A stretch of DNA of 34,267 nucleotides from Chrysochromulina tobinii. Lineage: Eukaryota. The DNA is taken from positions 1-34,267 of the forward strand of contig JWZX01002415.1 of NCBI GenBank assembly GCA_001275005.1. Direction: 5' to 3'. The position numbers and the translations under genes are program-made. Positions 3 to 23,006 of this stretch are shown piece by piece. Position 1 is the first letter of the stretch. Every line of letters begins with the position of its first letter. A model generated the notes under the pieces. That model was not told the origin of the DNA, made no database searches, and saw nothing but the letters and a program-made list of their open reading frames with translations.

Positions 3-3000
3 GAACAACGCGCACAAATCGCATGGAATCGCTCGAACGCGGAGTTTTTTCTCGAGGACTCAAAGTGCGGAAAAATGTTACCAAGTGCTGGAAAAGTTTT
101 GACAGGGGGTTTAAAGATTGCTGGGGAATGCGACAATTGCGCTGACGAGCGTCGTGCTGATGCAAACGCACCCATCCCACTCGTCGACTGCGAGGCTGAT
201 TGCACGCTTGCTGGATTGACAGCAAAGGGCGACAGCGAGACTGCAGCAGGGGAGGAGTGCGCCGGAACGAGTGGACAGAGCTCGAGCATCAGTGAGCGCG
301 CCGCGGTCCTTGACACGGCTGCGGAGAAGCACGAGGCGCACGCGGAGCTCAACGGCGACGACATGGAGACCGAGCTCGACGTAAGCGGCGAGGCGGCGGA
401 TCTGCGGGGCGTGCAGACGGATGAGCAGCGCGCGCAGCGACGGCGCGACATTGAGGATCGGCTATGGCGCGACAGGCTCCGCTCAGTCATCGACGCGACG
501 GATGCGTCTGAGGGCGACAAGGACAGGGTTTATGAGTACTGGACCGGCGAATACCAGTTGGAGTTCAATGAGACCGGCGAGAAGTGCACCGACCGGCGAG
601 TGCTTGAGTTGCTGCAGCGCGTGCTTACACCCGAACGGGTGATGCAACTGTCCAAGTCCGTTAAGGAGAAGCTGGCGACCGGGCTCGATGAGTTTAACGT
701 GGTGCTCGTCAAGCAGGGCGGGCCTGAGCTCGCGAAGCTCTTCGCTGAATCCATTGCGATTGAGGTGGCGACTTTTTCCTTTCCGACGAGCTGGACTACG
801 TGGCATGCGACGTTGATTCCGAAGCCCGGCAAGGATAGGTGCAAGCTAAGCGGCTGGCGAGAAATATGGATCCAGGCACACCTGTGGAAGTTGGTGGTCG
901 GCGCCATCTTGCCGGAGTGCGCCGAGGTCATCGCGCACACCGGCCGTGGTGCAACGCGGGTTTCGAGCCCGGGCGCGGCTGCCCGGAACAATCTGCGGCA
1001 CTGCGGGCAAGGTTAGAATTGCACATGCGGCTGCGACAGCCCCTCCACATCTACTTCCAGGACTATAGCGTCTTCTTCCCCTCCATCTCAAGACAACTTG
1101 TCGCCTTCATCCTACACGAGCTCGGCGTCAATACCATCTCGGTCCAGATCTTACTCGAAGTTCAGGATCAAGTTATGGGCGCGTTCAAGACGGCGGGCGG
1201 TCCCACTGAGCTGGCCCCGATGCTGAGAGGCGAGCCCATCGGCGGCGTCGAATCGCCGTTGTTCTCGCTGCCTGTGGCGGCGCTCATACAGCGCGCACTC
1301 GAGAACTACGTGCCGGGCAGCCCACTGCCGGATCGGCGCGAGCTGCGCGTCGCGGCGCTACAGCTTTGGTACGCCGACGACGGCGCACTTGCTGACGCCG
1401 TCGAGGGCATCATTCAGACTGCTGTGGACATCATGATCTTGCTGTCGGAGGATATCCTGGGGCTCAAGGTCGGGCACGACGCGGCCGAGGCGTCCAAGTC
1501 GGCGTCGCTGTCCTGGACATGGGACAAGTCGCGCAACGAGTTCATTCGCGGCGACGGCAACAAGTTCAAAGTACCGCTGGGCAGCTCCCGCGAGGATATC
1601 GAGCTGGCACGGGCAATCTCCTATCGATACCTGGGCATTGACTTCGACCCTGAGCTCGACATGACCAAAGTGGAGGAGTCTTACCGCGCACGGGCCAGCG
1701 CCATCGTCACCATGATCAATAACTTGGGCGGTGGCAGCTGCGATCAGCTGTCGCTTGCAATCAATACGGTCTGGCAAGGTATCTTCATCTTTCCGGCGAG
1801 GACTATTCCGTTCACTGAGAAGGTTGCCAAAGCGCTCGACGCCAAGGCCACCAAGGTCTTATGCAACCACGGCAACCGGCTACGGCACTCCAAGATTGTG
1901 GGAGCCTTTATCTCGGGCAAGTGCGGAGGGCTTGGGCTGCGGCCAGTGCAGTCTACGATGGCGGCGGGCTTCATCGACGAACGGGCGCGCGCGTTTGGCG
2001 GCCGGCGGGGCGAGCCCGCACGCGCGGTGCAGCTCGCGGCGCACTTAGCCTTTGCTGCAAGCCTCGGCTGGGACGGCCCGTCGCACGAGGCACCTACGGC
2101 CTTCGACTTCGTGATCTCGGAGCGTTGGCTACCGTTCTTACGGCTCGACGTGCCGAGCGAGTGCGTGGCGCTGCATCTGGCAAAGCTTGGGCTTAATTGG
2201 CGCGGCACCTGCGTGGCAGAGTGCGCGGCTGATGCACGGCGAGCAGCTGCTCGCGGCGAGCAGACGGCAACCAAGGTGCGGCTCATCAACATGATCAACG
2301 TCACGCCCTCGCTGCGTCTGCACGGGCTCGGAATCAATAGCCTCGACGAGCTACACGCGGGCTGTGGCGAGCTGCTGAGCGCCGAGCGAATCGAGCTCAT
2401 CTACGCGAGGCCTGGATGGGTCTGGAGCGATATTGACAAGGCGCACGTGCGACGGCTGTTGCGCGAGGTTGCCGGCGACGCGCGCGCGATGGTTGCGCTC
2501 GGCGATTGGCGAGAGCGTGGCGTTCGGATGGAGGGCGAGATCGCGCTCACTGAGCTGATCAACGTGGGCAGGCGCAGGGCGCTGAGCATGCTCTCGCGGA
2601 TTGCGGGGATTCTGTGGTGCAAGGACGCTGGCGGTGGTCGGCTCGACGAGCGCTCTTACGAGGTGATCTTTTGCGGCGCTCGGCGGCGCGACGCGGTCTG
2701 GCTCACACGGGCGCAAGTGTTGGAGGGCGCGGCTAGGCGTGACGCGGCGAGACGCGATGCGACGACGGCAGTGAGCTCGTGCGGTGCGTCGGCCGAACAC
2801 GTTGAGCCCAATGAGACTGATGAGGTGATCGCGTGGATGGACGAGGCAGACGTCTCGAGATGGGAGCCGAACACGTTCAACTGCTTCCTGCACCGGCTGC
2901 GAGGGCCGGCGCGTGCTGCTGCGTTTCTCGCCGCGGCCGGACGTTCTGCTGGCATTGAGCCGCGCGCGGCGGCTGCGCGCATCGAGCTCATCGACCTCCT

Positions 3001-6000
3001 GCTGCTCGATTACGCGGCGTTACGCGCCAAGGGCGTCTGCGCCAAAGAGGTCAACTTGCGAGAGGACAGGGCTGCGGATAAGGCCGGCAAGCACGCGGCC
3101 GGCGCGCACACGACGGCGTGGTCAGCAACGTGCGCTGCCGAATTACGACGGGCGAATGGCTTCGAGAATCGCGTGGCGGCGATACGTGTGCTGCCTGCGC
3201 CGCGTGACGCTGACGGGGCGAAGTTCACGGATGCACTCGTCGAGGCCCGGTACGATGGCGTCGCGTGGAACAATGGGCGGAGTAACGGCAGCTTATGGCG
3301 AGGGTGGCGCACAGCGGCGCACGTGCCTTCTCACTTTGAGCGCGCTCCGATGGCGTTCGCGTGCGCCGTCACGCGGAGCTTTATGCGCGATCGCGAGGCG
3401 GAGTGCGCGGACGAGGGGGCGCTCTTTGCGAACGCGTACGGCGAGCCGTTGAAAGTGCGCATTGCGCGCGACGAGGCGGCGCTCATCGCCACGGACATCA
3501 ATTTGGCGCTCATGGGCGAGATTGGCAAGATCGAGGTCGCCTGCGTTGCACGCGGACGCGGCGGTTTCCTTCTCGTCGCGGCTACGGACGGCGCGTTCGT
3601 CAGGGCCAAGACGCTCAGCGCGCGCGAGGCGCTGCGTTACGCTATGGCGAGCGACGAGGAGCGGAGCAGCTTGCGCTTGCGCGCGCCGTACGAGCCGCCG
3701 CAGGTGGCGAGCGGTGTCTTTTATGGTCTGCAGCCGATAGGCAGCGCATGCCCGGTGCTGGAAGGGCGGCGGCTGCCGGCGCACTACGACAACAATCAAG
3801 CCGAACTCGACGGGCTCATCCTCGCGCTGCGCCGGCACGTGGCGCTCCTGACTGGCCTCACGGTTCACGAGGTCCTCCAGCAGAGAGCAGTTGCTGCTCG
3901 ACTGCGAGCTCGTCACCGGGCCTGCGGCGAGTGCTGACGAGGACGCTGACGACGGTGCTGGTCTCTGTGCGGAGGGCAGCAAGAATAGGGCACCCAGTGG
4001 CGCGCGCGACCTGCTCGTCATCATCGACAGCGAGAACATATGCGACTTTTTCGAGCGCGCGTGGCGCTACGGCGACGTGAGACGGCTGCGCGGTGAGACT
4101 TACGGTCTGCGCATGGAGGAGGCGCTGCTGCTACGCAGATGGCTGCAGATGTTGGATGCCGAGGTGCACACGCTGCGCCTGAGCTCGCATTGCGGGTTCA
4201 TTCCCAATGTCTGGGCTGATGCGGTCGCCAACGCGGCGCGGCTGCTCGCTCTCGACGGTGAGCCGCCTCTGGTCGTGCGGCGCACGCTGGCCTTCCTGTG
4301 CAAGGTAGGCGGCGCAGGCATGACATGGGGTCCGTCATCGACGTGCTCTGATCAGGCTGAGGGCGCGAGGTCGGCGGCGGAGCTCGACTCGAGGCTGTCC
4401 AAGAAGGTGCGCGCGCTCGCCGACACTTGCGCGGTGCAGCTGCTCATCAGGGAGGGGGTCAAGGTGTGGCAGATCTTTCGACGGGGGCGCGAGGCGCGGA
4501 CCGAGATCGAGGAGCTCGTCTTTCTGGTCAAGGAGGGGCCGGTTAGTGACGACGAGATGACGGGGGAGGGCCGAGCGGGCAGGGATGCGCGGGCAATGTT
4601 TGAGCAGGCGCAGCGCGATCTTCTCTGCGCAGTCGACGGGACGGCCTCGCCGGAGCTGCTCGAGGGGCGCCTCTTCGCCACTCCCTTCTTTGACTTCGAG
4701 GGCGAGGGCTTGGACGTCACCAAGGGGCAGCAGCTGTTCGATCGGCGGATCCAGGGCGCTCTCTCGATTCAGAGAGGCGGTGGCTACGGTAGCCAAGTGG
4801 AGCTCACGAGGGTGGGCATGCGCCACATCTTGCGGAACTTCGCTCAGAGCGTGCTACCCGAGCTGGGCGAGGGCGTTGCGTCGAGCACGCCGACCGAGGG
4901 CGAGACGCTGCCCCTCTGCATCTGCCCGGCGTGCCACGCTGAGTGTCGTTGCGACTTTTTCCACTTCTTCGAGTGCGCGAGCGGCATCAGCGAGGCAGCC
5001 AGGAGCGCGTGCTGCAGGGCTCTCGAGCAGCACGCGACGATGCTCGACGTGCCGAGCGCGGAGGACGGCGAGGGTGAGGGCGACCTACACCTCGAGCTGG
5101 CATGGGCGAGAGTGGCGCTGCTGGCGAAGCGGCAGCCGGGCGAGCTGGGGAGGTACCGCAGATATTTAGCGGCCAAGGCGCTGTGCGGCGCGTTCGCGAT
5201 GCCCTCGGCGGCTTCGGTCCGAGCAGCGGCGATGGCCGACTGCTGGCAGTGCGAGTCCTCGCGGCAGGAGTCTACGGCGGAGGCCGCGGCCAACGACGAC
5301 GACGACGAGCTGGACGAGCTCGAGTGCGAGGAGGCGCGGCCGCGGAGCGAATTTGACTACATGCGGCTTGCGGAGGCGCGACGCAAGTTCAACAAATGGT
5401 ACGTCGCACGGGCCATCGCGCTCAACACGGTGGTTATCGATCATCTGCGAGCCGAGTTCGGCGATTGGCTGGGGCGCATGAAGCGAGGGCATGCGGGGCT
5501 GCGCGGAGCGTACGGCGGCGACTACCAAAGGCACTATACCGGCGGGCGCGGGCGCGTTCTCGACGAGCAACTTTGCGGCATGTTTTATCCGGCCAATGGC
5601 AGTGCAGGCGTGCCGATGAGCGAAGCTGACTTTGACAAGGGCATCGCGGCGGAGCTGCAGCCGGGGCGTTTTGTGCGCGTCGTGGGCGGCGAGACGCTCG
5701 TGCGTACGCACGGCACGGCTGACGCGCGGCGCGAGGAGCTCCGCAAGAAAAGGGATGAGGGCAAGGAACGGGAGCGGTTGAGAGCTGAAGAGGGCCGGTT
5801 CAAGTATGCTCGGCTCGAGCAGGAGCGAGAGCTTGGCGAGCTGCTCGAGAGGCGCATCGAGCGCGGCTTCGAGGGTCTGTCGGAGCCGGACGAAGAGGAG
5901 AGCGCGCTGCTCGCCGACGGTGGCCGAGAAAGGGCGCTGCGGCTCATGCGCGAAGCGTCGGCGGTGGGCGCGCGCGCGTGGCTGATGCCGGATGGCGGCG

Positions 6001-6890
6001 AGGCGATGAGGGCAGCGCGGGCTATTGGCGGCGCAGACGAGCGCGCAGATGAGGGCGGCGTTGGCGTGGCGCCGGCTCACATGGATGGCGATTTCGACGA
6101 GATGATTGTTGATGATGTGGCAGCGCCTCTACTTCAGGCGACGCAGCTGTATGGCACGGTGAATGAGGACATCGAGGAGGAGTCCGAGGTCGACGAGGCG
6201 GTGCGCCGAGCCCCCTTTTGTCAGGCGACTCAGCAACACGGTGTGTCGCTGGCCGGCGAGGATGCTGTTGACGACGACGACGAGGCGGTGCAACGGTGCG
6301 GCTGGTTTGACGCGCGGCTGGCAGAGAGCACAAAGGGCCTCGCCGCGAGATGGGCGGCGTGCGGACTTGAGATGAATGATGAGCTCACGGGCGAGCTGAG
6401 CGCGGCGAGAGAGGTTGCCGAGTGCATGAGTGAGATGGCGTCTGACGACGTTCATGATGAGCTGATGTGTAGCATGGATGTAGTAGCGGAGGTGCATGCA
6501 CAGGATGCAGAGAGGGAGCAGCAGAGTGAGGGGGTGTCTGTAGGGTGCGTCCGGCATGACGGCGACGGCGTGAGCGGCGGCAACAGCGCTGATGGACGAG
6601 GGCTCGAGGGCGAAGACGGCGGCGACATGGGCTGCGAGAGTGCCGACGGCGTCGAGCAGGGGGCGTCGATGGCGGCGTGCGAGGCGGAGGACAGCGACGA
6701 GGACGAGGCTATGGTGGGCAAAGAGAACGCGTCGATGCAGCGCGCAGAGTACGGCGGCGGCGCGGCTGGGGACATCAAGAAGAGGAAGCACAAGCGGTGC
6801 ATGAGGAAGGGCAAGGGTCATCGGAAACGGTTGGCAATGGCGAGGGCTAATGATCTACGACTGGCGGCGGACGAGGCGAGCGTGAGCTGA
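3..6890 (+). CDS. LINE ORF2-like polyprotein (about 2,300 aa visible, 5'-partial), interrupted by two frameshifts near 938 and 3884
   Basis: The frame of ORF 75..1016 is open from base 3. RT motifs: LIPKPGKD..WREIWI, NAGFEPGRGC, QDYSVFFPSI, RGEPIGGVESP, YADD (1370-1381), YRYLGIDF, GGLGL. RNase H motifs: TDGA (about 3584), NNQAELDG (about 3791), IIDSE (about 4019), SSHCGFIPNVWADAVA (about 4182-4230). Knuckle CPAC..H..C at about 4923-4976. The motifs run in order across ORFs 75..1016, 839..3937 and 3891..6890. Confidence 0.8.
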
Positions 6891-7413: not shown

Positions 7414-7670
7414 GCCACACGGATCACACAGTCACAGACAATCTCAGTACCTCACAACCGACCCTCCCGACCCACCACCCACCACGAGAACGCTCCCACT
7501 GAGAGCCGCACAGGCCGGGCACACGCTTGCAAAACACGCAGCGAATAGTTGACCACGTCACGACCCCGGAGCTGACCAGCCTGTTCAAATAGCCGCGTCG
7601 GAGTAAAACAATGAAGGCGCGCGCTGCAGACGCGTAGCGGCTCTAAGTACCGGCTCTAAGTATCCGCAGC

Positions 7671-10600
7671 TCAAATCCGCAGCTCAAAGCCAGCCTTTCC
7701 TTGCACTGCGTTACGAATGGAGGCCTTCCCTTCGCTGTCAATGCTGTTGTAGTTGAGGTTGCACTCGGTTAATGAGCTTGTGACGGCCACCATGGCCGCC
7801 ACTGACTTTGCTCCCACTGGACCAATGCTGTTGTCCTTGAAGTTGAGCGACGCGAGTTTCGTCTCCTTGTTGCTCTGGATGGCCTCGCAGACTGCGCTTA
7901 CGCCCTCATCCTTGAGGCTGTTAGAGGACAAATCCAGGGCTGTCAGCCCGCCATTGACTCGCAGAGCGTCGGCAATCGCTGTGATGCCCTCTGCAGTGTA
8001 GGTGCCTGTGTCACTGCCGAATGTCAACTGAACTCCGCAGAGTGCGTTGTTGGAGAGGTCCAGGCTTGTCAGCGAGCTATTGACGCGCAGAGCGTCAGCG
8101 ACGGCTGTGATGCCCTCCGCGTTGTAAGTGCCTGTGGGCATGCCCTTGTGAAACCAGACACCACAGAGGCGGGTGTTTGTGAGACTCAACTGCACAGGCT
8201 AAGAAACAAACGGGTCAGGAAAGAGGGGTCATGCGGATGTGGGCTGATAAGGAAACGTAAGGAAACTTACCTTCCTGAGCGAGCTGTTGACACGCAAGGC
8301 GTCGGCGACCGCTTTGGCACCCTTCCCACCAAGGTAGTTGCCCTGCAACCTGCAGGCACAAACACCAGAAAGCACACGGTACGAGTGGGTGCCGAAAGAG
8401 CTCAGGTGCTGGCAACGAGTTGTCCACATTCGGTAAGTACGAGTCGGGGGGGACGTACTCTATTTGAGTCAGCGAGCTATTGATGGCAAGTGCCTTAGCC
8501 AATGCGGTCGCTCCCTTTGGGCCGAAAATGGTTGATGAAACCGAGTTGCTCAGGTCAAGCTTGCTGAGGCTCATACTCTGCTCGATAGCAACTGAGAGCG
8601 CCTCCACACCTTCGTCGCCCAGCTTTATGTTATCAACAAGCGAGAGGTGTGTCAGCGCGCCTGTGACACCGGCCTGTGACAGGTCCGACGCCAGCAGCAT
8701 CGCATCGGGCGGCTTGAGGCTCTGCTTGGAGAAGTCAGCGGTGGTCTGGCTGCGCTGGATGCCGCAGAGCGAGATACCCTTCTGCTTGGCGACTTCAGCG
8801 AGCATCTTGGCGGACTCCGCATCAAGTTGATTGTGCAGGAGGTCAGTCACCTTCAGCGAACCTGTGACAACGGCCTGTGACAGGTCCGACGCCAGCAAGA
8901 TTGCATCGGGTGGCTGGAGGCCATTGCCGAAGAAGTCAGCGTTGGTTTGATCGCGCCGGATGCCGCAGAGCGAGATACCCTTCTGCTTGGCGACCTCAGC
9001 GAGCGTCTTGGCGGACTCTGCATCAAGCCGATTGCCCAGGAGGTTGACCACCGTCAGCGCGCCTATGGCAAGGTCCGACGAAATGAGGATGGCGTCTGCT
9101 GGGCCGAGGCCCAGGTTGGCAAAGTTGGCCTCTTTCTGATCGCGCTTGATGCCGAACAGCATGGTGCCTTTTTCGTTGCCGATCTTGGCGAGCTTTTTCG
9201 CTGACTCGCTGTCCAAGAAGTTTCCGCGGACATTACACTCCGTCAGCGTGCTTGTGACAGCCACCATGGCCGCCACAGACTTTGCTCCCACTGGACCGAT
9301 GCCGATTTGGCCCATGTTGATCGTTGCGAGCTGGGTCTCCTTATTGCTCTGGATGGCCTCGCAGATCGCACCAACTCCCTCATCACCAACGTGGTTGCCA
9401 TAAATAGACAACTTTATCAGCGCACCTGTGACACCAGCCTGTGACAGGTCCGACGCAAGCAGGATCGCATTACCCTCTCTGAGACCCTGGTTGGAGAAGT
9501 CAGCGGTGGTTTGATCGCGCTGAATGCCGCAGAGCGAGATACCCTTCTGCTTGGCAACCTCAGCGAGCATCTTGGCGGACTCCACATCAAGCTGATTGCC
9601 CAGGAGGTTGGCCAACGCCAGCGAGCCTGTGACGCTCGTGCGGAGCGCCTCGGCGATCAACTTGACACCAGCAGGGCCGATGTTCTCGGAGGATGCGTCC
9701 ATAGACATGATCTTGCTGTCCTTGTTGCCGCAGATGGCGGCAAAGATGGCACCCCAGCCCTCGTCCCCGAGCTTGTTGCCCCTGAGCTTGACGGACGTCA
9801 ATGCGCCATTGATGCGCAGAGCCTCCGCAATTGCTGTGATGCCCTCTTCAGTGTAGGTACCGCTGACCGTGCCAAATAGCCCTTTGACCACTCCACAGAG
9901 TGCATTGTTGGAAAGGTCCAGGCTCGTCAGCGCGCCGTCGACGCCAAGAGCTGCTGCGAGCTCCTTGATGCCCGTCATGTCCCTGCCAGAGTCGGTGAGA
10001 TGATTTCCGGACATGTTGATGCTCGTCAGCCCGCCTGTGACAACGGCCTGTGACAGGTCTGACGCCAGAAGGATCGCATCGGGCGGCTTGAGGAATTGGT
10101 CGGAGAAGTCAGCGGTGGAGAAGTCAGCGGTGGTCTGGTCACGCTGGATGCCGCAGAGCGAGATACCCTTCTGCTTGGCGACTTCAGCGAGCATCTTGGC
10201 GGACTCCGCATCAAGTTGATTGAGCAGGAGGTTGGCCACCGTCAGCCCGCCATTAACGCGCATGGCGTCGGCGATTGCAGTGATGCCCTCGGCGGTGTAC
10301 GTTCCCCTCAACGTTCCCCGGCCCCAAATGTCCACACCGCACAGCATGTTTTTGGAGAGGTTGATAGTCGTCAGCGCGCCGTTGACGCCGATCAGCGAGG
10401 CGATCACGATGGCAGAGGCAACACCGAGGCGCTTGTTTGAGAGGTCGAGGGACTCGACTGGCTCGGTGCCCTTGAGCTTCTTGATGGGCAGCGCATAACC
10501 GTCGAGGTTAACCTGAATGCAAAGAGCGCAAGCTGTCAGCTCAGAACAGGTCACAATTTGTGGTCCAAACACGCTGGGCCAGCGTACCTCCGTCAATGCG

Positions 10601-11746
10601 CCATTGATCGGAAGCATCATGGCAAGAAGCCGAGTGGCCACGTGCCCAAGGTGACAATCCCGGAGATCGAGCTCCTTGACGCTACCCTCACGTAGCTGCT
10701 GCACCGGAATGCCGCCGATGGTCCCGCTCGCTGCCAACGCGACGGCAGCCAGGAGCAGCTTCTGTGGCACCTCCCCTTCCTCCGGTGCAATGCATGCACG
10801 CAGGGCCTCTTGACAAAGTACTCTTGACAAAGTATCTCGAACATCATGATCCTCATCATGATCCTCGTCGCCTTCCCCCTCAGCTCCCAGTTCTGCTTGC
10901 CGGACAGCTGCGACGTCCACTGTGAAGCCGTAGCCAAGCAGCTTAGTAAGTCCGGGAAGCATCTGCCCGGCCGCGGCAACCTCCCACGGACAGCCTTCGC
11001 CGATGAGGTACTCCACGTCGATGGCTGTGACATCCTCACGACGCTTTGGCACTGTCGCTGGCCGACCCGCGTCGTCGAGGGGCCGAGCCGCGAGCGGACA
11101 CACACGAGAGCAGAGTTGGTGGCGTGCGCGTAGTTTCCATGCGCTGCTCACCGCCTTCAATGTGCGCAGCAGCGCAGTGGGAGCGTACTCGAGCGCGGCT
11201 CGGATGGCGTCCTCGGAGCCAAGTTGGCTAGCAACGGAGTGACGGAGTGGCGGTGGGGCGACCATGCTCGAAGACGACTCCTTGTCGTCCTCCTGTGAAC
11301 TTTCCTCTGGGGCCCCATCGCCCTCGGGCTCGAAGAGCGGCTCTGCGAGCATCAATGCGTGGGCCGTCTGGGGAATGGTCTCCTCGTTGCGCACGCAGAA
11401 CATCTCACACAACGCATGAACATCCAGGCCGTCAGCACGGCGGAAGAGCTCCGTGGCCAGAACCTTGAAGGCTTCAGAGGCGTAGAGGTAGTTTGCTGCC
11501 TCCATGGCGCACACGAGCTCTTCGAGCGCAACGTCAGCGAGAGGCAAAGAAGCCCGTGCTTGCAAGCTGGGCGATCACCAAAGAGACCGGTGGTGCAGCG
11601 CGCTCCACTCGGAGGACGTTGCCCTCGGTGTGCTCTATCATGTCCTTGAGAAATCCGGCGCGCCTCACCGCATCTCTTGAGAATTGGAGCTCCTCTCCAT
11701 CGGACGTGCAGATCGTGAATGACTCGACCTCGCGAGTGTGCTGCAT
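7671..11746 (-). CDS. Skp1-like + F-box-like + LRR (ribonuclease-inhibitor/NLRC3-like) protein. Exons about 11746-10588, 10512-8459, 8349-8271, 8189-7671, with one frameshift near 11538
   Basis: N-terminal TSDGEELQFSRDAVRRAGFLKDMIEH and EELVCAMEAANYL..ELFRRADGLDVHALCEMFCVRNE resemble Skp1. EDAIRAALEYAPTALLRTLKAVSSAWKLRAR resembles an F-box. Many LTSLDLSxN..G..A.A.AL..N repeats follow. GT-AG introns at 10513-10587 (75 nt), 8350-8458 (109 nt) and 8190-8270 (81 nt) keep the LRR frame. Confidence 0.8.
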
Positions 11747-15955: not shown

Positions 15956-16861
15956 GGCCCCCGTGCACGGCCCCTACACGGCCCCTACACGGCCCCCGCG
16001 CCTCTCGTCTTCGGGGGCAGTGGGGTGGCATAGCCTCAACACGCAGCCTGCACGTCGCGTACCGTAGTTCTGCCACACATGGACGATGGAGCGTCAGTTG
16101 GAGTGTGCGCGAACGCACCGTCGGCTGAAATCAGTTGTACAGCCAACGAGCAACGAGAGTTAATGGACATGCGAATGCGGAATGGAAGAGGGGACGGGGC
16201 AGACGAGATGGACTGAGATTCGGATCAACAAGCGGCGCCGGGCGCGGCGCCCGGCGCCGGCGGCACTGAGAGTGTGCACTGTGGCAGCTGGAAGTGGAAC
16301 TCCGACTGGTTGTGGCCAATGCGCACGCCACGTGGTCGGATGTAAACAGTAGGAACGGAAGGGGGTCTGGGCTCCGTGCTGTGGCGCTATTGGCACCGCG
16401 CCGCGCCGCGTGCCTGCTGTCTCCGCACCCCGATCCCGCGCCTGATGTCTTACGGTGCGACCCGGTGTGTCCTGGTTCACCTGCGTTGGCGTGCCGGTGA
16501 GCTGCACTTCATGGACATGGTCCATGCGATGCACTCCATGGCGGAGGTGACGAGAAAGGTTAAGGTAATAAGTTTAATAGACTCCTCCGTCTACAATGAA
16601 GAATTACCTCGCGACCCTCGTGCCAGCCTAATTGTAATATTGTATCCTAATCGGCATCGGCTAATGATTGAATGCGGCCATTCTCGTCGGTCTGAGACTA
16701 CGTGGTCGCGCGCCGATCCACACGAGCTGCAGTGACTCATTGAGCACGCGGCCGCGAGTCAGAGCAACAAGAATCAGCGCTGGCTGTCGACACGTAATCA
16801 GAGATCATCATCATGGCATGAGCTCGGTTACTTCAGAGCTCGGTTTCGTGAGCGCTGATCA

Positions 16862-19800
16862 TCACACGTGGTCAAGTGATGCGCGGTTCGCCGCGGAGTT
16901 GCCTTGCGCCCCTACGCCCAATGCATTTCCCCACAGGAGTCCACGAGTGCGGGAGGGCTTGGATGGGTCGGGTGAGCCGCCCGAGGGCTTCTCACGCTCG
17001 AGCCGCGCGTGCAGCGTCGCAACGGCGGCGCGCAGGTCAGCGTCGGTCGGGCCGTGGGGACGTGGGGCTAGGAGCCCCTCGACACGCTCCATCTGCTGCC
17101 CCAAGCGTTCGTCCAGCGCGCTCAGCTGCGCCTCGACGCGCTTGAGCAGCGCCTGAGGGGTGGCGCCCGCTGCGTCGGTGCCCGCTCGGTCATGGAGCAG
17201 GAAGCGCTGCACGTACCTGTGGGAAGGGAGGCGCCGTGGTGAGCACATGCATGCTGTGGGCGCCCGCGGTCATGGAGCAGGAAGCGCTGCACGTACTTTT
17301 TGGAGACGGGGGTGCGCGAGATACGCTGGTTGAGCGGGCGCGCGGCCGCGAGCTTGTGCAGCTTCTCGACGCCGAGCTCGGCGAGGGAGATGTCCGTCCG
17401 GCACATGTAGCGCCGGAGCGCGGCGCCGATCTCAGCGAGGAGTTTCGTCAGGAGCAGCGGCAGCGAGAAGGGAGGCGGGATGGCGGCGATGACGTGGTTG
17501 TGCTCAAAGATGGGCAGGAAGCGCTGGTAGTGGTACTCGACTTCGGCATTGCCCTTGATGCGCGCGTACGTGTCGGCAAACATGGCGATCAATAGGTTGA
17601 CGAGCACCACGTTGATGACCATCATCAGCACATACATGAGCGGCAGGGCAAAGGGGATCGACGAGAATCGTTCGGTCTCGAGGTCGGTGAACATGGCCCA
17701 GAGCGGCAGTGCGAGCAGCGGCAGCGAGCCGTCCGCATCCGCTTCGTCATCTGCGCCCGTGCCACGTAGCATGCGTCCGAGGGCAGCGGCGGAAGACGCC
17801 TTAGAGGCGGCGAGGATGGAGGCGATGGAGTCGGAGGTGATGGGGGTGAGGGGGGTGAGGGGGGTGGTGCCCGCGGCAGGCGACCCGACGAGCAGAGGCG
17901 CAGGATCGTCGTTGGAACCCCACAGCCAGTTCCACAGCATGGTCGTCGGCTCGTCGGAGAGCCGATGCGTCGAGGTCTCGGAGAGGCCGAGAAGGGCACC
18001 GCTGAAGCCCAGCAAGATGACTGCAAAGAAGACGAGGAAGAGGGAGAGGTCGACCAGCATCTGCTCCATGATGATCGTGAGCACACCAAAAGAGAGCGAC
18101 GGCCACCTGTGGGGAGGGGAGGGCGACGTGGTGAGCACTTGCATGCCGAGCCGTGGTGCAGCAGGGTTCAAACGAGAGCGACGGCCACATGAAATTGAAG
18201 AGCTCGATGCTGATGGGCACCGCGTCCATTGACACGAGGGTCTGGTAGAGCAGATAGCACGAGTGCTGTAGCGGCAGCGCCACGTCCGCATACTCACTCG
18301 GCACCGGCGCGACCGAAAGGAGACGCACCCCGATCGCCAGCGCCAGGAGCGCATACGCAAATTGCACGATGCCCTGGACAGGCATCGTGGCCGTCAGTCC
18401 GAAGCCGCGCATGCTCACGTGCAGATGCCACTGCTCGAGCCCCAGGGTGAGAGACCACACGATGAAGAGCCCCTCGGTTGGGTTGAGAGGCGGCAGCGAG
18501 AGGCCCGCGTCGCCGGCCGCGAGGGTCGCGAGCTGGTCGGCAGTGAGCAGGTGCGTGAGCTCATACGCATACAGCGCGAGGAAGGCGAGTTGCCAGAGCG
18601 CCCGCACCCAGAACTTGACCAGAGGCACCCTATAGAACGACACGAAGGCCGATGGAGGTTGGGCGCCTGCCGGCAACTCTGCGTTCAAGAGAATGATCCG
18701 GCGCGCTCCCCGAGGTGTGCCGAGGTGCATGCTGCCCTTGGTCTGTGCTCGGCGCACGCGCGCGGCCACCCAGGAGGCATCCTGGGCGACGATGTCCATG
18801 CCCTCGAGATGATGCACTGCGCCCTCGGCCTTGGGCTCCGAACTGTCCTCCAGCATGTCATTCATGCTCTTCGTGCGCACCGTGAAGAGACTCTGGTGCT
18901 TCAATGCATCGGGTTTGTCGGGCGAGGAGACGCTGTTCGCCGTCTTGGCGCGCGCGACTGTGGAAGCCATCTTAAGGTTCGCCGAGCCCTTGGCCGCAGA
19001 TCGCTCTCGGGAAGAGAGGCGCAGCGCCTGCGCGAGCGCCCCGTAGAGCAGATCCTCGAGCTGCGCGGTCGTGCGCACGTTCTTCATGTCTTTGTGGTCC
19101 TCCGCCATCTGGAGGTACGGGTTGAGGAAGGGCAGCACGATGTACGCACAGAGCGAGAAGGCGTTCTGGTCGGCCGAGAGCAGGCAGAACGAGCCTGGGT
19201 AGCCGCCACGCCACCACAGGTCCATGAGAGACTGGCAATGCCGGTGCGCCAAAAAGTTCTTGCGCTCCATGTGAAGAGCGAGCTCGACGAGCGCTCCCAT
19301 ATGCCATTCGGGCACGTTCTGCGACAGGATGACGTGCGCGACCTCCTGAGGCTCAACACCACCCTCGAGCATGCAGGTGGGTCAGCATGCAATGCGAATG
19401 CGGGAGGGCCATCAACCTGCCATCAGTCGCAATCAGCATGCAACGCGAATGCGGGAGGGCCATCAACCTGCCATCCGTCGCAATCCCACCTGCTCCTCGA
19501 CACCGTCGAGCACGGAGATGGCCCAGCGCTCCAGAGTCTCATGTGCCTCTTTGACCTTCGCCTTGCCCCAGCTCACCTTGCCGTGCATCTTCTGCAGCAG
19601 GTGGCTCGCGATCAGCGCGCAGTGTAGCGGGTTCTCCACGTGCGCCCAAAGTTCACGTGCCAGGTGCACGTTGCCCATGAAGACTGCCCAGAAGAACAAA
19701 TCGACCTCCGACGCGCGCCGCTGATGCGAGACTGCCGCGTAGAGCAGGGGCGAGGCCGAGCGCAAAAAGGGGCCTACTACCTCGAGGTAGAGCGAGTAGC

Positions 19801-22800
19801 TCAGGTTGCGTGCGACCGAGCCGTCAGCGAGTCGCTGATCGAGACGCTCTTGGAGCTCAACGTCGGCGCGCAGAAAGTTGTACGGGTCTTCCTGCAGGTA
19901 CAGCTGGCACAGGTTGACCTGTGGATGGATGGAGAAGCCATGTGAAAGGCAATTAAGGCGTATGGTGGCGTATGGAGGCGTATGAAGGCGTATGGAGCAA
20001 TCGGAGGCCATTCGAGACCATTCGAGATCATTCGAGATCATCCGAGATCATCAGAGGTCATCAGTGGCCATCAGAGCCAGTTCGAGGCCATCAGCGGTCA
20101 TCAGAGGCCATCAGAGGGCCACCAGATGCCATCAGAGGTCGTCAGAGGCCAACATAGCCAATTCGAGGCAAATTGCGTACCTGGTCGATCTTGGAGCCCG
20201 GTCGCTCGAGCAGCAGCTTGACAATCTCTGTGTTCTGGTACTCGAGCGCATGCTGGAGCATCTTGCGCAGCGGGCGCGAGTAATCCTCGGTGGACGGCAG
20301 CTCCATGAGCATGCGGCGCGCGAAATCGGGCTGCGGAAGAGGGGAGGAGACAAAGCTCATCAGAGGCACTCCGAGGTACTCCGAGGCACTCCGAGGCACT
20401 CAATGATAGTCCAGGGCCATCCAGGGCCATCCAGGGCCATCCAGGGCCATCCAGGGCCATCCAGGGCCATCCAGGGCCATTCAGGGCCATTCAGGGCACG
20501 CACCTGGTTCCATTTGACGGCAAGCAGCAGCGCGCGTTGCATATGGTCATGCCGACGACTCTCATTCTTCTCAGCGAGCTGCACGACGCGAACGAGCTTG
20601 GTGGTGCTGAGCGATGACGGTGTCGGTGCACTACGCGACGCTTTCATAGACGAACCCTGAGTCGCCGAGCCGTCGAAGAAGGATGCATGCTCGAGGTCAG
20701 CATGCAATGAGGGAGGGCCATCAGCATGCAATCAGTCGCCATCACACCTGCTCGAGGGCGTGATCGCCCGAGCTCTGGTAGAACATGAGGTTGCGGAAGA
20801 GGCAGCGGAGCAGCGCCGTGGCCATCGTCTCATCCGTGGCCTCATCCGCGAGCTGAAGGCAGGAGAGCAGCGTGCCATTTGTCAGAGACCATTAAAGACC
20901 ATCGGAGGCCATCAGAGGCACTCATCAGAGGCCATCAGAAGGCAATCATCAGAGACCTTCAGAGGCAATCCTCAAAGGCAATCATCAGAGGCCACCAGAG
21001 GCACTCGGCGTGCCTGAAAGAAGGAGAGGAGGGTGCCCTCCCGCGCCTCGTTCATCTGACGCAGCGTCTCAAGCTTCGCCTCCGACTCGAGAAAGGCGCC
21101 GTCTTGAACGCTCCCAATCCCGCGCTCGCAGTACTGCCAGAGCGCCGTAGCCGCGCCGCCACTGTCCGCGAGCACGAGGAGGGGCGAGCCCTGCTCGGCC
21201 GACGCAAGCATCATGTCGAGGGTGCCCGGGCCGCCCTGCACTACGAGCAGCACGACGGGCACGCCCTTCATCTTCGCGTACGTGTGCTCGAGATCGGCTC
21301 GCATCTTCACCTGAGGAGGGAGGCAATCAGCATGCACTCAGAGACGCAATCAGCAATGCAATCAGGCACGGGGAGCTCGAGATCGGCTCGCATCTTCACC
21401 TGAGGAGGGAGGCAATCAGTAATGCACTCTGAGACGCAATCAGCAATGCAATCAGGCACGGGGAGCTCGAGATCGGCTCGCATCTTCACCTGAGGAGGGA
21501 GGCAATCAGCATGCACTCTGAGACGCAATCAGTGGCGTCATCAGCGGCGGCACTCGAGAGAGGTCTTCACCTCATGTCCCCAAGCGATGGAACCCTCATC
21601 GTATTGCCGGTGGCCGTCGACGAGGATCTGGTGCGTGTGGTACGGATTGAGGCGCGCTGCGTGCGGGCCGCTCTGGCCGCCGGCGCGATACACGCGCGTG
21701 TCGCCCTTGCAGCCGTGCATGCCCTGTCTGCCCAACACGGCGCCCCAGGGGGCGACCCCGACTAAGGGAACGTCGAGACCATACTTATGTATCGCCTCGC
21801 CCACGAGCTTCATCACGCCGCTGTCCGTGCCGCCGGTGAAGATCCACGCGTTGGTCATCGCGGCCGCCGTCGCGAGGCCGCGGTCGAAGACGCGCTGCAG
21901 GTTGGCGGTGAGGGTCAGGGTCGCTGCAGATCCCGTCACCGAGATGAGCACGTCAGGGCGCGGCAGCCGCCAAAACTTTTCGAGGAAGTGTGAGAGCGCC
22001 GCGCACGACGTCGTGTCTGAGACGCGGATGAAGCGCGCCACGCGTGAGCCCGACAGGAACGAGACCATCCCAAAATCGGACATGGAACCGTCCTTGTTGG
22101 CGAACATCATCGGACCGTACGCCGCGTACATCGCACTGTGCTGCCGGTACCATCGCTGAATCTTGAGGCACGCGCGGTCGCGCCTGGACGCATCCGGCTT
22201 CTCGAGCTTGGCGCTCAGCTCTTTGATGGTCTTCCCACGCTTGACCGCCGCCGCCGCAGTCTTTAGGATCGTGCTCGAGCTCCTCGGAGATTGGCTGGAG
22301 ATGCTGCATCTCGGATTGGCTGACGCCGCAGACGACGCACCGGCAGACGACGCACCGGCAGACGACGCACCGATCGGTGGCCGCGACGGCTGCGGCTGCT
22401 GCAGTGCAGCCGCGGACGCGCACGTCGGCACTGAAGTGGGCGCAGTAGATGGCACGCACGCTGACTTGTCTGAACGAGCCCCGAAGCCGAACGAGGCCGA
22501 ACGAGGCCCGGGAGTGGCAGTAGCAGCAGCGGCGGCAGGAGCGGCCACAGGCTTCGGCGGCTCGGGCTCCGGCTGCCGAGGCTCGTCCGCGAAACGCACG
22601 TACGAGCTGCAGCCCATGGCGCGGCCGAGGGTCCCAGGCAAGAGACGGCTAAATGGTTCTGAAGCCAATGACGAGGCGCAAGCTGGCCTGTGGGCAGGCC
22701 CGGGTGTTGCCGTAGGCGGCGAAGGTGCCGGAAGCGGCTCTGGCTGCAGAGGCTCGTCCGTGAGTCGCTCGTATGGCATGGAACCGATGGCGCGGCCGAG

Positions 22801-22863
22801 GGTGCCAGGCTCGAGACGGCTAAAGGGCTCCAAGTCGTCGCTCCACCTCGCTTTGCGACTCAT
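16862..22863 (-). CDS. TRPM-family cation channel, 9 exons. Introns at about 21311-21570, 20853-21013 (GC-AG), 20690-20747, 20331-20503, 19919-20180, 19346-19489, 18107-18188, 17217-17296
   Basis: SLOG/MHR motifs WRLPRPDVLISVTGSA, AWIFTGGTDSGVMKLVGEA, LNPYHTHQILVDG and VPVVLLVVQGGPGT. Also LFFWAV..LARELW, FLAHRHCQSLMDLWWRG, FYRVPLVKF, and S6/TRP region NVVLVNLLIAMFADTY with IPPPFSL. Joining at the listed splice sites gives a continuous frame. The intron 3 acceptor (GAG) and the start codon are less certain. Confidence 0.88.
19957..20170. repeat. Degenerate about 10-nt intronic repeats (CGTATGGAGG, CATTCGAGAT, CATCAGAGGC types)
   Basis: They fill most of TRPM intron 19919-20180. Confidence 0.85.
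20411..20497. repeat. (CCAGGGCCAT)7 plus variant copies, intronic minisatellite
   Basis: Seven exact 10-mers at 20411-20480 inside intron 20331-20503. Confidence 0.95.
21286..21533. repeat. Tandem 89-90 bp units, each containing a splice acceptor and the first 25 nt of the next exon
   Basis: Minus-strand CCTCCCTCCTCAG|GTGAAGATGCGAGCCGATCTCGAGC occurs three times, with junctions at 21490, 21400 and 21311. Confidence 0.92.
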
Positions 22864-23006
22864 CGGCCAAGACGGCCAACTCCACCGCGAAAGAAAATTC
22901 ACACGTTTTGAAAAAGAGCGTCGTCGTGGCGTAATCGAAAGTACGCGCGCGTTGTGACATGAACAGCACAGCAGCAGCACCTACTTCGGCAGCCAAAACA
23001 CTGACT

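What the first reader, a model, noticed from the sequence alone, without database searches (positions are those of the whole stretch)
21286..21570. Intron built from tandem CAG|GTGAAG units: candidate recursive splicing
Seen: TRPM intron 1 (260 nt) is made of units of 81, 90 and 89 nt. Each begins GTGAAGA and ends CCTCCCTCCTCAG. The last two begin with an exact 25-nt copy of the next exon, and the first with a decayed copy. Every internal junction is an acceptor immediately followed by a possible donor. Stopping at an internal acceptor leaves 179 or 89 extra nt, both frameshifting. Inference: the spliceosome must skip two perfect decoy acceptors or remove the units stepwise as zero-length exons, which is known mainly from very long animal introns.
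Basis: partly seen in the sequence, partly recalled or inferred. Interest (0 to 1): 0.7.

Follow-up and report, generated by a model that had tools for sequence, protein, structure and literature searches.

The report
Intron grown from copied exon starts
An intron in an ion-channel gene of a freshwater alga is a stack of three short units, each a copy of the next exon's start plus a splice acceptor; the spliced RNA seen joins the outer ends, likely in one step, and many introns of this alga share the build, which points to a likely copy-and-patch route of intron birth.

Summary
In detail: a 260-nt intron of 81, 90 and 89-nt units in a haptophyte (Chrysochromulina) TRPM-like gene. DNA depth and three other assemblies confirm three units; a 0.6%-diverged allele has two. 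Recursive splicing is not supported: RNA contigs show only the 21571-21310 joint (3 of 4 runs), no intermediates, though depth is low and contigs drop rare forms. The locus is one of many. Of 163 distinct acceptors of two repeated families in related loci, 92 have an upstream copy of the next exon's start (swapped controls 6 of 652) and 27 have internal acceptor-plus-copy junctions; 5 of these 27 lack GT/GC at the junction, one in STT3, so decoys can likely be skipped without recursion. One 91-nt intron of this build is absent from a 0.7%-diverged allele. Best reading: 'mirage'-type decoy stack on an intron born by duplication of 12-60 exon bases plus a shared acceptor cassette. Mirages and introners that take their donor from a 3-9-nt duplication are known; long, variable duplications were not found in print (10 searches). 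The scan noted this intron family before on another piece of this genome.

The parts
21311..21570 (-). Intron 1 of the TRPM-like gene, 260 nt, GT-AG, three units
   Evidence: RNA joint skipping exactly 260 nt in X14, X16, X17
21490..21570 (-). Unit 1 (81 nt): working donor, decayed copy of exon-2 start, acceptor cassette; inferred founding intron
   Evidence: present in both alleles
21400..21489 (-). Unit 2 (90 nt): exact 25-nt exon-2 copy, 21-nt filler, acceptor cassette; one such unit is missing in allele L038
21311..21399 (-). Unit 3 (89 nt): exact 25-nt exon-2 copy, filler, and the acceptor that is used; last 43 nt differ from unit 1 at 1 place
21465..21489 (-). Exon-2 copy in unit 2, directly behind decoy acceptor 1
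21375..21399 (-). Exon-2 copy in unit 3, directly behind decoy acceptor 2
21311..21330 (-). Family-A acceptor cassette (20 nt; also at 21400-21419 and 21490-21509), a high-copy intron end of this alga
   Evidence: 105 loci with the exact 20-mer, 103 kept as this alga; summed DNA depth 24,549 against 36 in this bin
21014..21310 (-). Exon 2 (297 nt), second part of the SLOG domain; its first 25 nt (21310-21286) are the copied segment
   Evidence: PF18139 profile positions 156-220; RNA contigs
21571..22863 (-). Exon 1 (1293 nt from the ATG), first part of the SLOG domain
   Evidence: PF18139 profile positions 1-145
18107..18188 (-). Intron 7 (82 nt): starts with a 15-nt exact copy of the next exon, ends in family-B cassette
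17217..17296 (-). Intron 8 (80 nt): starts with a 30-nt exact copy of the next exon, ends in family-B cassette
16862..22863 (-). TRPM-like channel gene, 9 exons, 1582 codons without internal stop
   Evidence: Pfam LSDAT_euk and TRPM2 on the matching protein P0056

Best explanation
The intron is a stack of three duplicated 'exon start plus acceptor' units that is likely removed in one step from the donor at 21570 to the last acceptor at 21311, with the two inner acceptors likely acting as tolerated decoys, and it likely arose by a copy-and-patch mutation that is common in this alga. Shown: three real units, unit number differs between alleles, the only spliced joint seen is the outer one, and the same build recurs in many other introns. 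Inferred steps: (1) unit 1 was born when a stretch of exon starting with GT was duplicated and a shared branch-point/acceptor cassette was patched in between the copies, so the first copy supplies the donor; (2) a second event re-copied the last ~43 nt of the intron and 25 nt of exon 2 with a 21-nt filler; (3) slippage or unequal exchange between the 25-nt repeats changed the count between two and three units. I commit to repair-type template switching on DNA as the patching step (about 0.5), ahead of reverse transcription of intron RNA (about 0.25). How the last acceptor is chosen is not shown; recognition of the true exon, or decay of frameshifted products, would both fit.
For: Splicing: single joint 21571-21310 in X14 (depth 3.7, an unbranched 51-nt junction contig), X16 (13.2, 1726-nt contig, 187 letters on the short side) and X17 (11.3), 3 of 4 runs; no other joint listed. 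Homologs are collinear across the junction with no 10-residue repeat (19 of 19 that show the junction, a 20th reads into the intron; P0056). Decoys need no regenerated donor: 6 of 41 internal junctions, in 5 of 27 stacked introns, are AG followed by neither GT nor GC, including one in an STT3 gene held in both alleles L015 and L056; in L057 two inner acceptors have decayed. Origin: 64 of 118 family-A and 28 of 45 family-B acceptors have an upstream copy of the next exon's start, against 4 of 472 and 2 of 180 swapped pairs and 4 of 29 other acceptor-like sites; a stricter first pass gave 37 of 68 against 3 of 408. Of 73 units, 49 have no acceptor before the first copy, 43 of these starting GT or GC; copy length 12-60 nt (median 25), unit length median 80, copy and filler lengths anti-correlated, rho -0.60. 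A 91-nt intron with a perfect 17-nt copy is present in L066 and absent from L053 (0.67% diverged, frame open, next intron retained). Whole units come and go between alleles at seven loci, this one included. Relatives whose proteins were called unbroken on 9-34-kb contigs have Ile, not a GT-starting Val, at this site, which fits a gain here.
Against: Frameshifted products would likely be degraded and so be invisible. Units are intron-sized (39 of 41 longer than 60 nt) and 34 of 41 junctions are AG|GT, as stepwise removal would need. Splicing of the five non-GT stacked introns was not checked in RNA, and GC donors inside a unit could offer other routes. The direction of the L053/L066 difference is not shown: direct repeats also favour precise loss. 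Acceptors were defined by motif, without RNA, in loci fetched for carrying the cassette (about 465 kb non-redundant), so the fractions are not genome-wide. That relatives lack the intron rests on unbroken protein calls, not on their DNA. For 21 of 27 single-unit introns the best filler match lay in another locus, but fillers are low-complexity, so the donor of the patch is not identified.
Confidence: 0.68

Rival explanations
1. Stepwise (recursive or nested) removal: each 81-90-nt unit is excised as its own short intron with zero-length exons between, in either order, and this is the main route.
For: Both inner junctions are CAG|GTGAAGA with the same first 7 bases as the working donor. Units genome-wide are intron-sized. 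No stable fold hides the inner acceptors (z=+1.17), so nothing obvious stops the first acceptor being used. Recursive lariats occur over a range of human intron sizes (PMC10156609, passages).
Against: No intermediate joint in 4 of 4 RNA runs. No excess of GT/GC at inner junctions (p=0.56); five stacked introns cannot ratchet at the junction. The regenerated junction would equal the final exon 1-exon 2 junction for 25 nt, yet exon-3 contigs are unbroken in 3 of 3 RNA runs, giving no sign of exon-2 loss by re-splicing (weak). In mammals the exon junction complex represses such re-splicing (PMC6224609, abstract), and short introns favour conventional lariats; neither is tested in haptophytes.
Confidence: 0.17
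2. Leaky acceptor choice: the inner acceptors are used at an appreciable rate and the products are either destroyed (frameshift) or rescued as in-frame 30-nt micro-exons, adding one or two 10-residue repeats to the SLOG domain.
For: Units 2 and 3 each hold a GT 30 nt in, giving in-frame micro-exons and 60/59-nt GT-AG introns. The three acceptors are identical over 20 nt.
Against: No micro-exon joint in 4 of 4 runs; no repeat at this place in any homolog; the micro-exon donor context (CCC|GTGCCT) is unlike the CAG|G context of five other introns of the gene.
Confidence: 0.08
3. Plain local repeat instability only: old introns gain tandem copies of their boundary ('mirages'); no intron is born, and introns that start with an exon copy come from loss or overwriting of the old 5' part, for instance by partial conversion with spliced cDNA.
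For: Units 2 and 3 reuse the last 43 nt of unit 1 (1 mismatch). Donor-side boundaries are duplicated too (L011, L022, L096). These introns are full of 10-nt arrays that vary between alleles. This does explain units 2 and 3.
Against: It does not by itself explain 49 of 73 units with no acceptor before the first copy, 13 of them sharing no base with the acceptor end at the donor, the intron-less allele L053, or unbroken relatives. One unit sits antisense to intron-type repeats and starts CG (L079).
Confidence: 0.2
4. Assembly artefact: one unit tripled by the assembler.
For: The window's possible source runs are among those found, so identical assemblies are not independent.
Against: Unit-specific variants, 2.1x depth on the shared part and 1x on the unique part; an independent two-unit allele with 20 differences in 3244 nt.
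Confidence: 0.02

Closest known systems
Amphioxus 'mirages' (Adh3, globins BflGb6 and BflGb9; PMC3087553, passages)
   Same: Tandem copies of intron 3' end plus next exon start; unit number differs between haplotypes; normal splicing is reported unaffected; proposed there as a route to new introns.
   Different: Here the first unit starts at the working donor, so the whole intron is made of such units; the acceptor part is a genome-wide family sequence; the build is seen in 27 of 163 family introns of a unicellular alga with ~80-nt introns.
Introners that carry the acceptor and take the donor from the target-site duplication (Symbiodinium, Polarella classes 4/5 and 6/8/10; bioRxiv 10.1101/2020.10.14.339549 sections 4-5; PMC9860276, passages)
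   Same: Shared 3' end with acceptor; the first copy of a direct repeat supplies GT/GC; precise splicing; presence/absence between close relatives.
   Different: Their duplications are fixed and short (3-9 nt); here 12-60 nt and variable, the shared part is only 20-40 nt plus variable short arrays, and units stack at one site. The Chrysochromulina family shown in PMC9860276 has a 4-bp duplication and carries the donor, the opposite arrangement.
[quoted passage not shown]
   Same: Direct repeats flank the new intron; filler of outside origin; duplication of exon sequence supplies a splice site.
   Different: Tandem duplication needs AGGT in the duplicated exon; here most new donors lack a preceding AG (31 of 49 share at most one base) and the acceptor comes from a recurring cassette.
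Recursive splicing at ratchet points / zero-length exons (PMC5126111 and PMC10156609, passages)
   Same: Internal YAG|GT junctions behind a pyrimidine tract.
   Different: No intermediates seen; junctions are recent, polymorphic by-products of copying a GT-starting exon; the intron is 260 nt.

Membership tests
Recursive splicing | Internal acceptor directly followed by a donor (YAG|GT) | tested here: met
   Two CAG|GTGAAGA junctions
Recursive splicing | Splice intermediates joining the upstream exon to the internal site | tested here: inconclusive
   None in 4 of 4 RNA runs, but contigs of depth 3.7-13 drop rare forms
Recursive splicing | Lariats for the sub-introns, or saw-tooth nascent coverage | not testable with these tools
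   Only assembled contigs were offered
Recursive splicing | Internal site kept by selection | tested here: not met
   One junction absent in L038; no excess of GT/GC at inner junctions, p=0.56
Mirage minisatellite | Tandem repeat spanning an intron-exon boundary | tested here: met
   Period 90, 2.8 copies across 21286-21532
Mirage minisatellite | Unit number varies between alleles | tested here: met
   Three units in the window, two in L038
Mirage minisatellite | Regular splicing to the authentic boundary persists | tested here: met
   Direct joint in 3 of 4 RNA runs
Introner (transposon-derived intron family) | Many introns at unrelated sites with similar sequence | tested here: inconclusive
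   118 and 45 distinct acceptors share two 3' cassettes, but likeness is limited to the last 20-40 nt plus short arrays
Introner (transposon-derived intron family) | Short target-site duplication of family-specific fixed length | tested here: not met
   12-60 nt, median 25, in 73 units (repeats under 12 nt were below the threshold of that scan)
Introner (transposon-derived intron family) | Presence/absence between close relatives | tested here: met
   L066 against L053 (91 nt) and L055 against L070 (67 nt)
Introner (transposon-derived intron family) | Terminal inverted repeats | not tested
   No search made; the 5' ends of the inserted parts vary from intron to intron
Introner (transposon-derived intron family) | An autonomous partner element | tested here: inconclusive
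   Reverse-transcriptase-like frames at 3-3937 gave no Pfam or PDB match; no whole genome held
TRPM-like channel (host gene) | SLOG (LSDAT) and TRPM helical domains | tested here: met
   PF18139 E=1.3e-44 and PF25508 E=1.8e-10 on P0056

The most novel reading that the evidence does not exclude
This alga runs an ongoing, self-feeding intron factory without a classical transposon: a short acceptor cassette copied from existing introns (perhaps from intron RNA) is patched in behind a 12-60-nt duplication of the target, in modules of about 80 nt; because most cassettes are followed by GT(A/G)C the patch tends to land on donor-like sites, and repeated hits stack modules into multi-unit introns, some of which may be removed unit by unit, which would make them a natural short-intron test of recursive splicing.
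Probability: 0.3. Interest if true: 0.8.

Novelty: new variant of a known kind. Interest (0 to 1): 0.5.

Why it matters
Most new introns have no identifiable origin. Here the footprint is fresh, frequent and polymorphic, so birth, stacking and decay of introns can be read from population genomes of one cultured alga. Stacks of two to six identical acceptors within 150-500 nt also give a natural series for asking how a short-intron spliceosome picks the last acceptor. Practically, the exon copies mislead gene prediction: the public protein for this gene repeats five residues at intron 7 relative to my model and to homologs.

Tried and rejected
No whole genome is held, so all counts come from 105 fetched loci plus the window; L071 and L105 (AT-rich, unrelated) were dropped before counting. 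Mis-assembly: rejected. RNA structure hiding the decoys: folding is no better than shuffles, z=+1.17. Known RNA families: none at E<=1 in 16800-23000. Selection for in-frame units: lengths modulo 3 are 12/15/14 of 41, no bias. Local neighbour as source of the filler: best match was in the same locus for 6 of 27 single-unit introns, elsewhere for 21; low complexity makes this uninformative. The first lay (90% likeness, with a DNA run) listed no joint for intron 1 among 15 of 27 rows; X15 was seen only there and shows none. The tree (22 proteins) places the gene with P0002 among relatives with unbroken calls, but the backbone is open and no one-clade test was run, so it is only context. A nearby reverse-transcriptase-like frame could not be confirmed. 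The two passes at family A gave 68 and 118 acceptors because the fuzzy search was run differently; both give 54% with a copy. Searches held wrong coordinates for three other introns, corrected. Paper searches found no description of long exon-start copies in haptophyte introns; supplementary family lists of the introner papers were not seen and may hold one.

Full report
1. The observation. The minus strand holds a 260-nt GT-AG intron at 21570-21311 made of units of 81, 90 and 89 nt. Each starts GTGAAGA and ends CCTCCCTCCTCAG; units 2 and 3 open with an exact 25-nt copy of the next exon, unit 1 with 7 exact bases and a decayed remainder. The array scores 471 in Tandem Repeats Finder. Use of an inner acceptor meets a stop after 60 or 30 codons. 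The host gene has nine exons and 1582 codons without internal stop; the intron interrupts the SLOG domain between profile positions 145 and 156. The protein collection lists a matching Chrysochromulina tobinii TRPM protein, P0056, so the organism is a freshwater haptophyte.

2. Is it real? In DNA run X7 (1 of 12 DNA holders; it may be the window's source) unique contigs have depth 35.6-36.9, the stretch common to units 2 and 3 has 76.9 and the unit-2-specific stretch 35.8. L017, L076 and L080 carry the identical intron; L038, with 20 differences in 3244 aligned bases, lacks exactly one 90-nt unit and has a GTGAGG donor. The units are real and their number varies.

3. How is it spliced? Five of six RNA runs were laid, all as assembled contigs that also hold unspliced sequence. 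At 99% likeness one joint is listed, skipping 260 nt with GT-AG ends, in X14, X16 and X17; X13 lists none but its exon-2 contig stops at 21312, where that joint would branch. X15, seen only, shows none among 15 of 27 rows displayed. No joint to 21489 or 21399 and no micro-exon joint appears in 4 of 4 runs. Homologs are collinear across the site. This shows the product, not the path: depth is 3.7-13, contigs drop rare forms, and stepwise removal ends in the same joint.

4. It is one of many. The 20-nt acceptor end matched 105 metagenome loci, 37 distinct places, one of them (2 loci) unrelated and dropped. In about 465 kb of non-redundant sequence I defined by motif 118 acceptors of this family (A) and 45 of a second (B, also in introns 7 and 8 of this gene). 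An upstream copy of the next exon's start was found for 64 of 118 and 28 of 45, against 4 of 472 and 2 of 180 swapped pairs, and for 4 of 29 other acceptor-like sites. In 27 of 163 the intron has at least one inner acceptor followed by the exon copy, up to five. These loci were fetched for carrying the cassette, so the fractions describe the families, not all introns.

5. What the family says about recursion. Of 41 inner junctions 34 are AG|GT, 1 AG|GC and 6 neither. GT/GC is as common behind other family acceptors (117 of 136 against 22 of 27 introns, p=0.56), so it is explained by copying exons that start with GT. Five introns have inner acceptors that cannot regenerate a donor; one is in STT3, in both alleles seen. 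Elsewhere inner acceptors have decayed (L057). Folding gives no special structure. From papers: the exon junction complex represses re-splicing at regenerated donors in mammals (PMC6224609, abstract) and short human introns favour conventional lariats (PMC10156609, passages); neither is tested in haptophytes. I put direct removal at about 0.7 and stepwise removal as main route at about 0.17.

6. What the family says about origin. Of 73 units with a copy scoring 12 or more, 49 have no acceptor before the first copy, and 43 of those start GT or GC, so the copy is the donor. Copies are 12-60 nt, units centre on 80 nt, and copy and filler lengths trade off (rho -0.60); 31 of 49 such donors share at most one preceding base with the acceptor. 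L066 has a 91-nt intron with a perfect 17-nt copy that L053 lacks precisely, with an open frame and the next intron retained. Several relatives have proteins called unbroken across the present site on 9-34-kb contigs and encode Ile there, which suggests gain in this lineage; this is inferred from protein calls, and the tree is only context. Inferred history of this intron: unit 1 born by duplication of a GT-starting exon stretch with a cassette patched between the copies; a later copy of its last 43 nt (1 mismatch) plus 25 exon bases and a 21-nt filler; then a change between two and three units. Repair-type template switching is my first choice for the patching step because variable duplications with fillers occur on the donor side and in antisense too; reverse transcription of intron RNA fits the fixed 3' end and ragged 5' end (recalled properties of non-LTR insertions) but no enzyme was confirmed. 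Overwriting of old introns remains open.

7. Comparison with what is known. Units 2 and 3 meet the three features of amphioxus 'mirages' (PMC3087553, passages; the lead came from earlier scan notes). The single-unit introns work like introners that carry the acceptor and take the donor from the duplication (bioRxiv 10.1101/2020.10.14.339549, sections 4-5; PMC9860276, passages) but fail their short fixed duplication, so I do not file them as members. They also resemble repair-born introns with direct repeats (PMC3443670, passages; PMC11782384, abstract). Recursive splicing membership rests on the motif alone (PMC5126111, passages). The species' genome paper mentions 'intron' once (PMC4580454, passages); PMC12130899 does not name the genus in its main text (passages). 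Ten searches found no account of this build in haptophytes; supplementary family lists were not seen. An earlier scan note (e1-2577349) reports a repeat-flanked intron family on another piece of this genome; my counts were made before reading it, and it is not independent support.

8. Verdict. Observation confirmed; recursive splicing unsupported but not excluded; the locus is a mirage-type stack on an intron of a family likely born by long duplication plus a shared acceptor cassette. New variant of a known kind; interest 0.5, resting on the family, not on this intron alone.

Noticed in passing
window 17217-17296 and 18107-18188 (-): Introns 8 and 7 of the same gene start with 30- and 15-nt exact copies of the next exon and share a second acceptor cassette (family B). 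The public protein repeats five residues at intron 7, which would follow from a donor placed after the copy.
   Followed up: partly
window 20853-21013 (-): Intron 2 likely uses a GC donor at 21013: RNA contigs break at 21014 in 3 of 3 runs and not in DNA; the public protein is three residues longer here.
   Followed up: partly
L066 - strand near 7460; L053 - strand near 283: Precise presence/absence of a 91-nt intron with a perfect 17-nt exon copy in a second TRPM-like gene; the same pair differs by a 72-nt added unit elsewhere.
   Followed up: yes
L055 + near 670-735 against L070: A 67-nt family-B intron in an ABC-transporter-like gene is present in one allele and absent in the other, with no exon copy.
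   Followed up: partly
L062 against L089: A 162-nt intron with two inner acceptor-like ends is missing exactly at GT..AG in L089 (0.0% other difference); L089 may be a transcript contig, not determined.
   Followed up: no
L036 - 2659 and 3430, L002 + 11558, L043 - 12434: Stacks of four to six units of the same build as the finding, better test objects than this locus.
   Followed up: partly
L011, L022, L096, L030: Copies of the previous exon's end plus donor also occur inside introns, with cassette-type arrays between the copies.
   Followed up: no
window 3-3937 (+): Two overlapping frames carry motifs that recall a non-LTR reverse transcriptase (recalled, including a YADD-like motif), followed by a 1012-codon frame at 3852-6890; no Pfam or PDB match.
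   Followed up: partly
window 22604-22650 and 22782-22826 (-): The 5' end of the TRPM-like gene holds a dispersed duplication of about 60-70 nt (two similar start regions); homolog P0002 has one.
   Followed up: no
window 7671-11574 (-): Long leucine-rich-repeat gene with 126- and 201-nt internal repeats.
   Followed up: no
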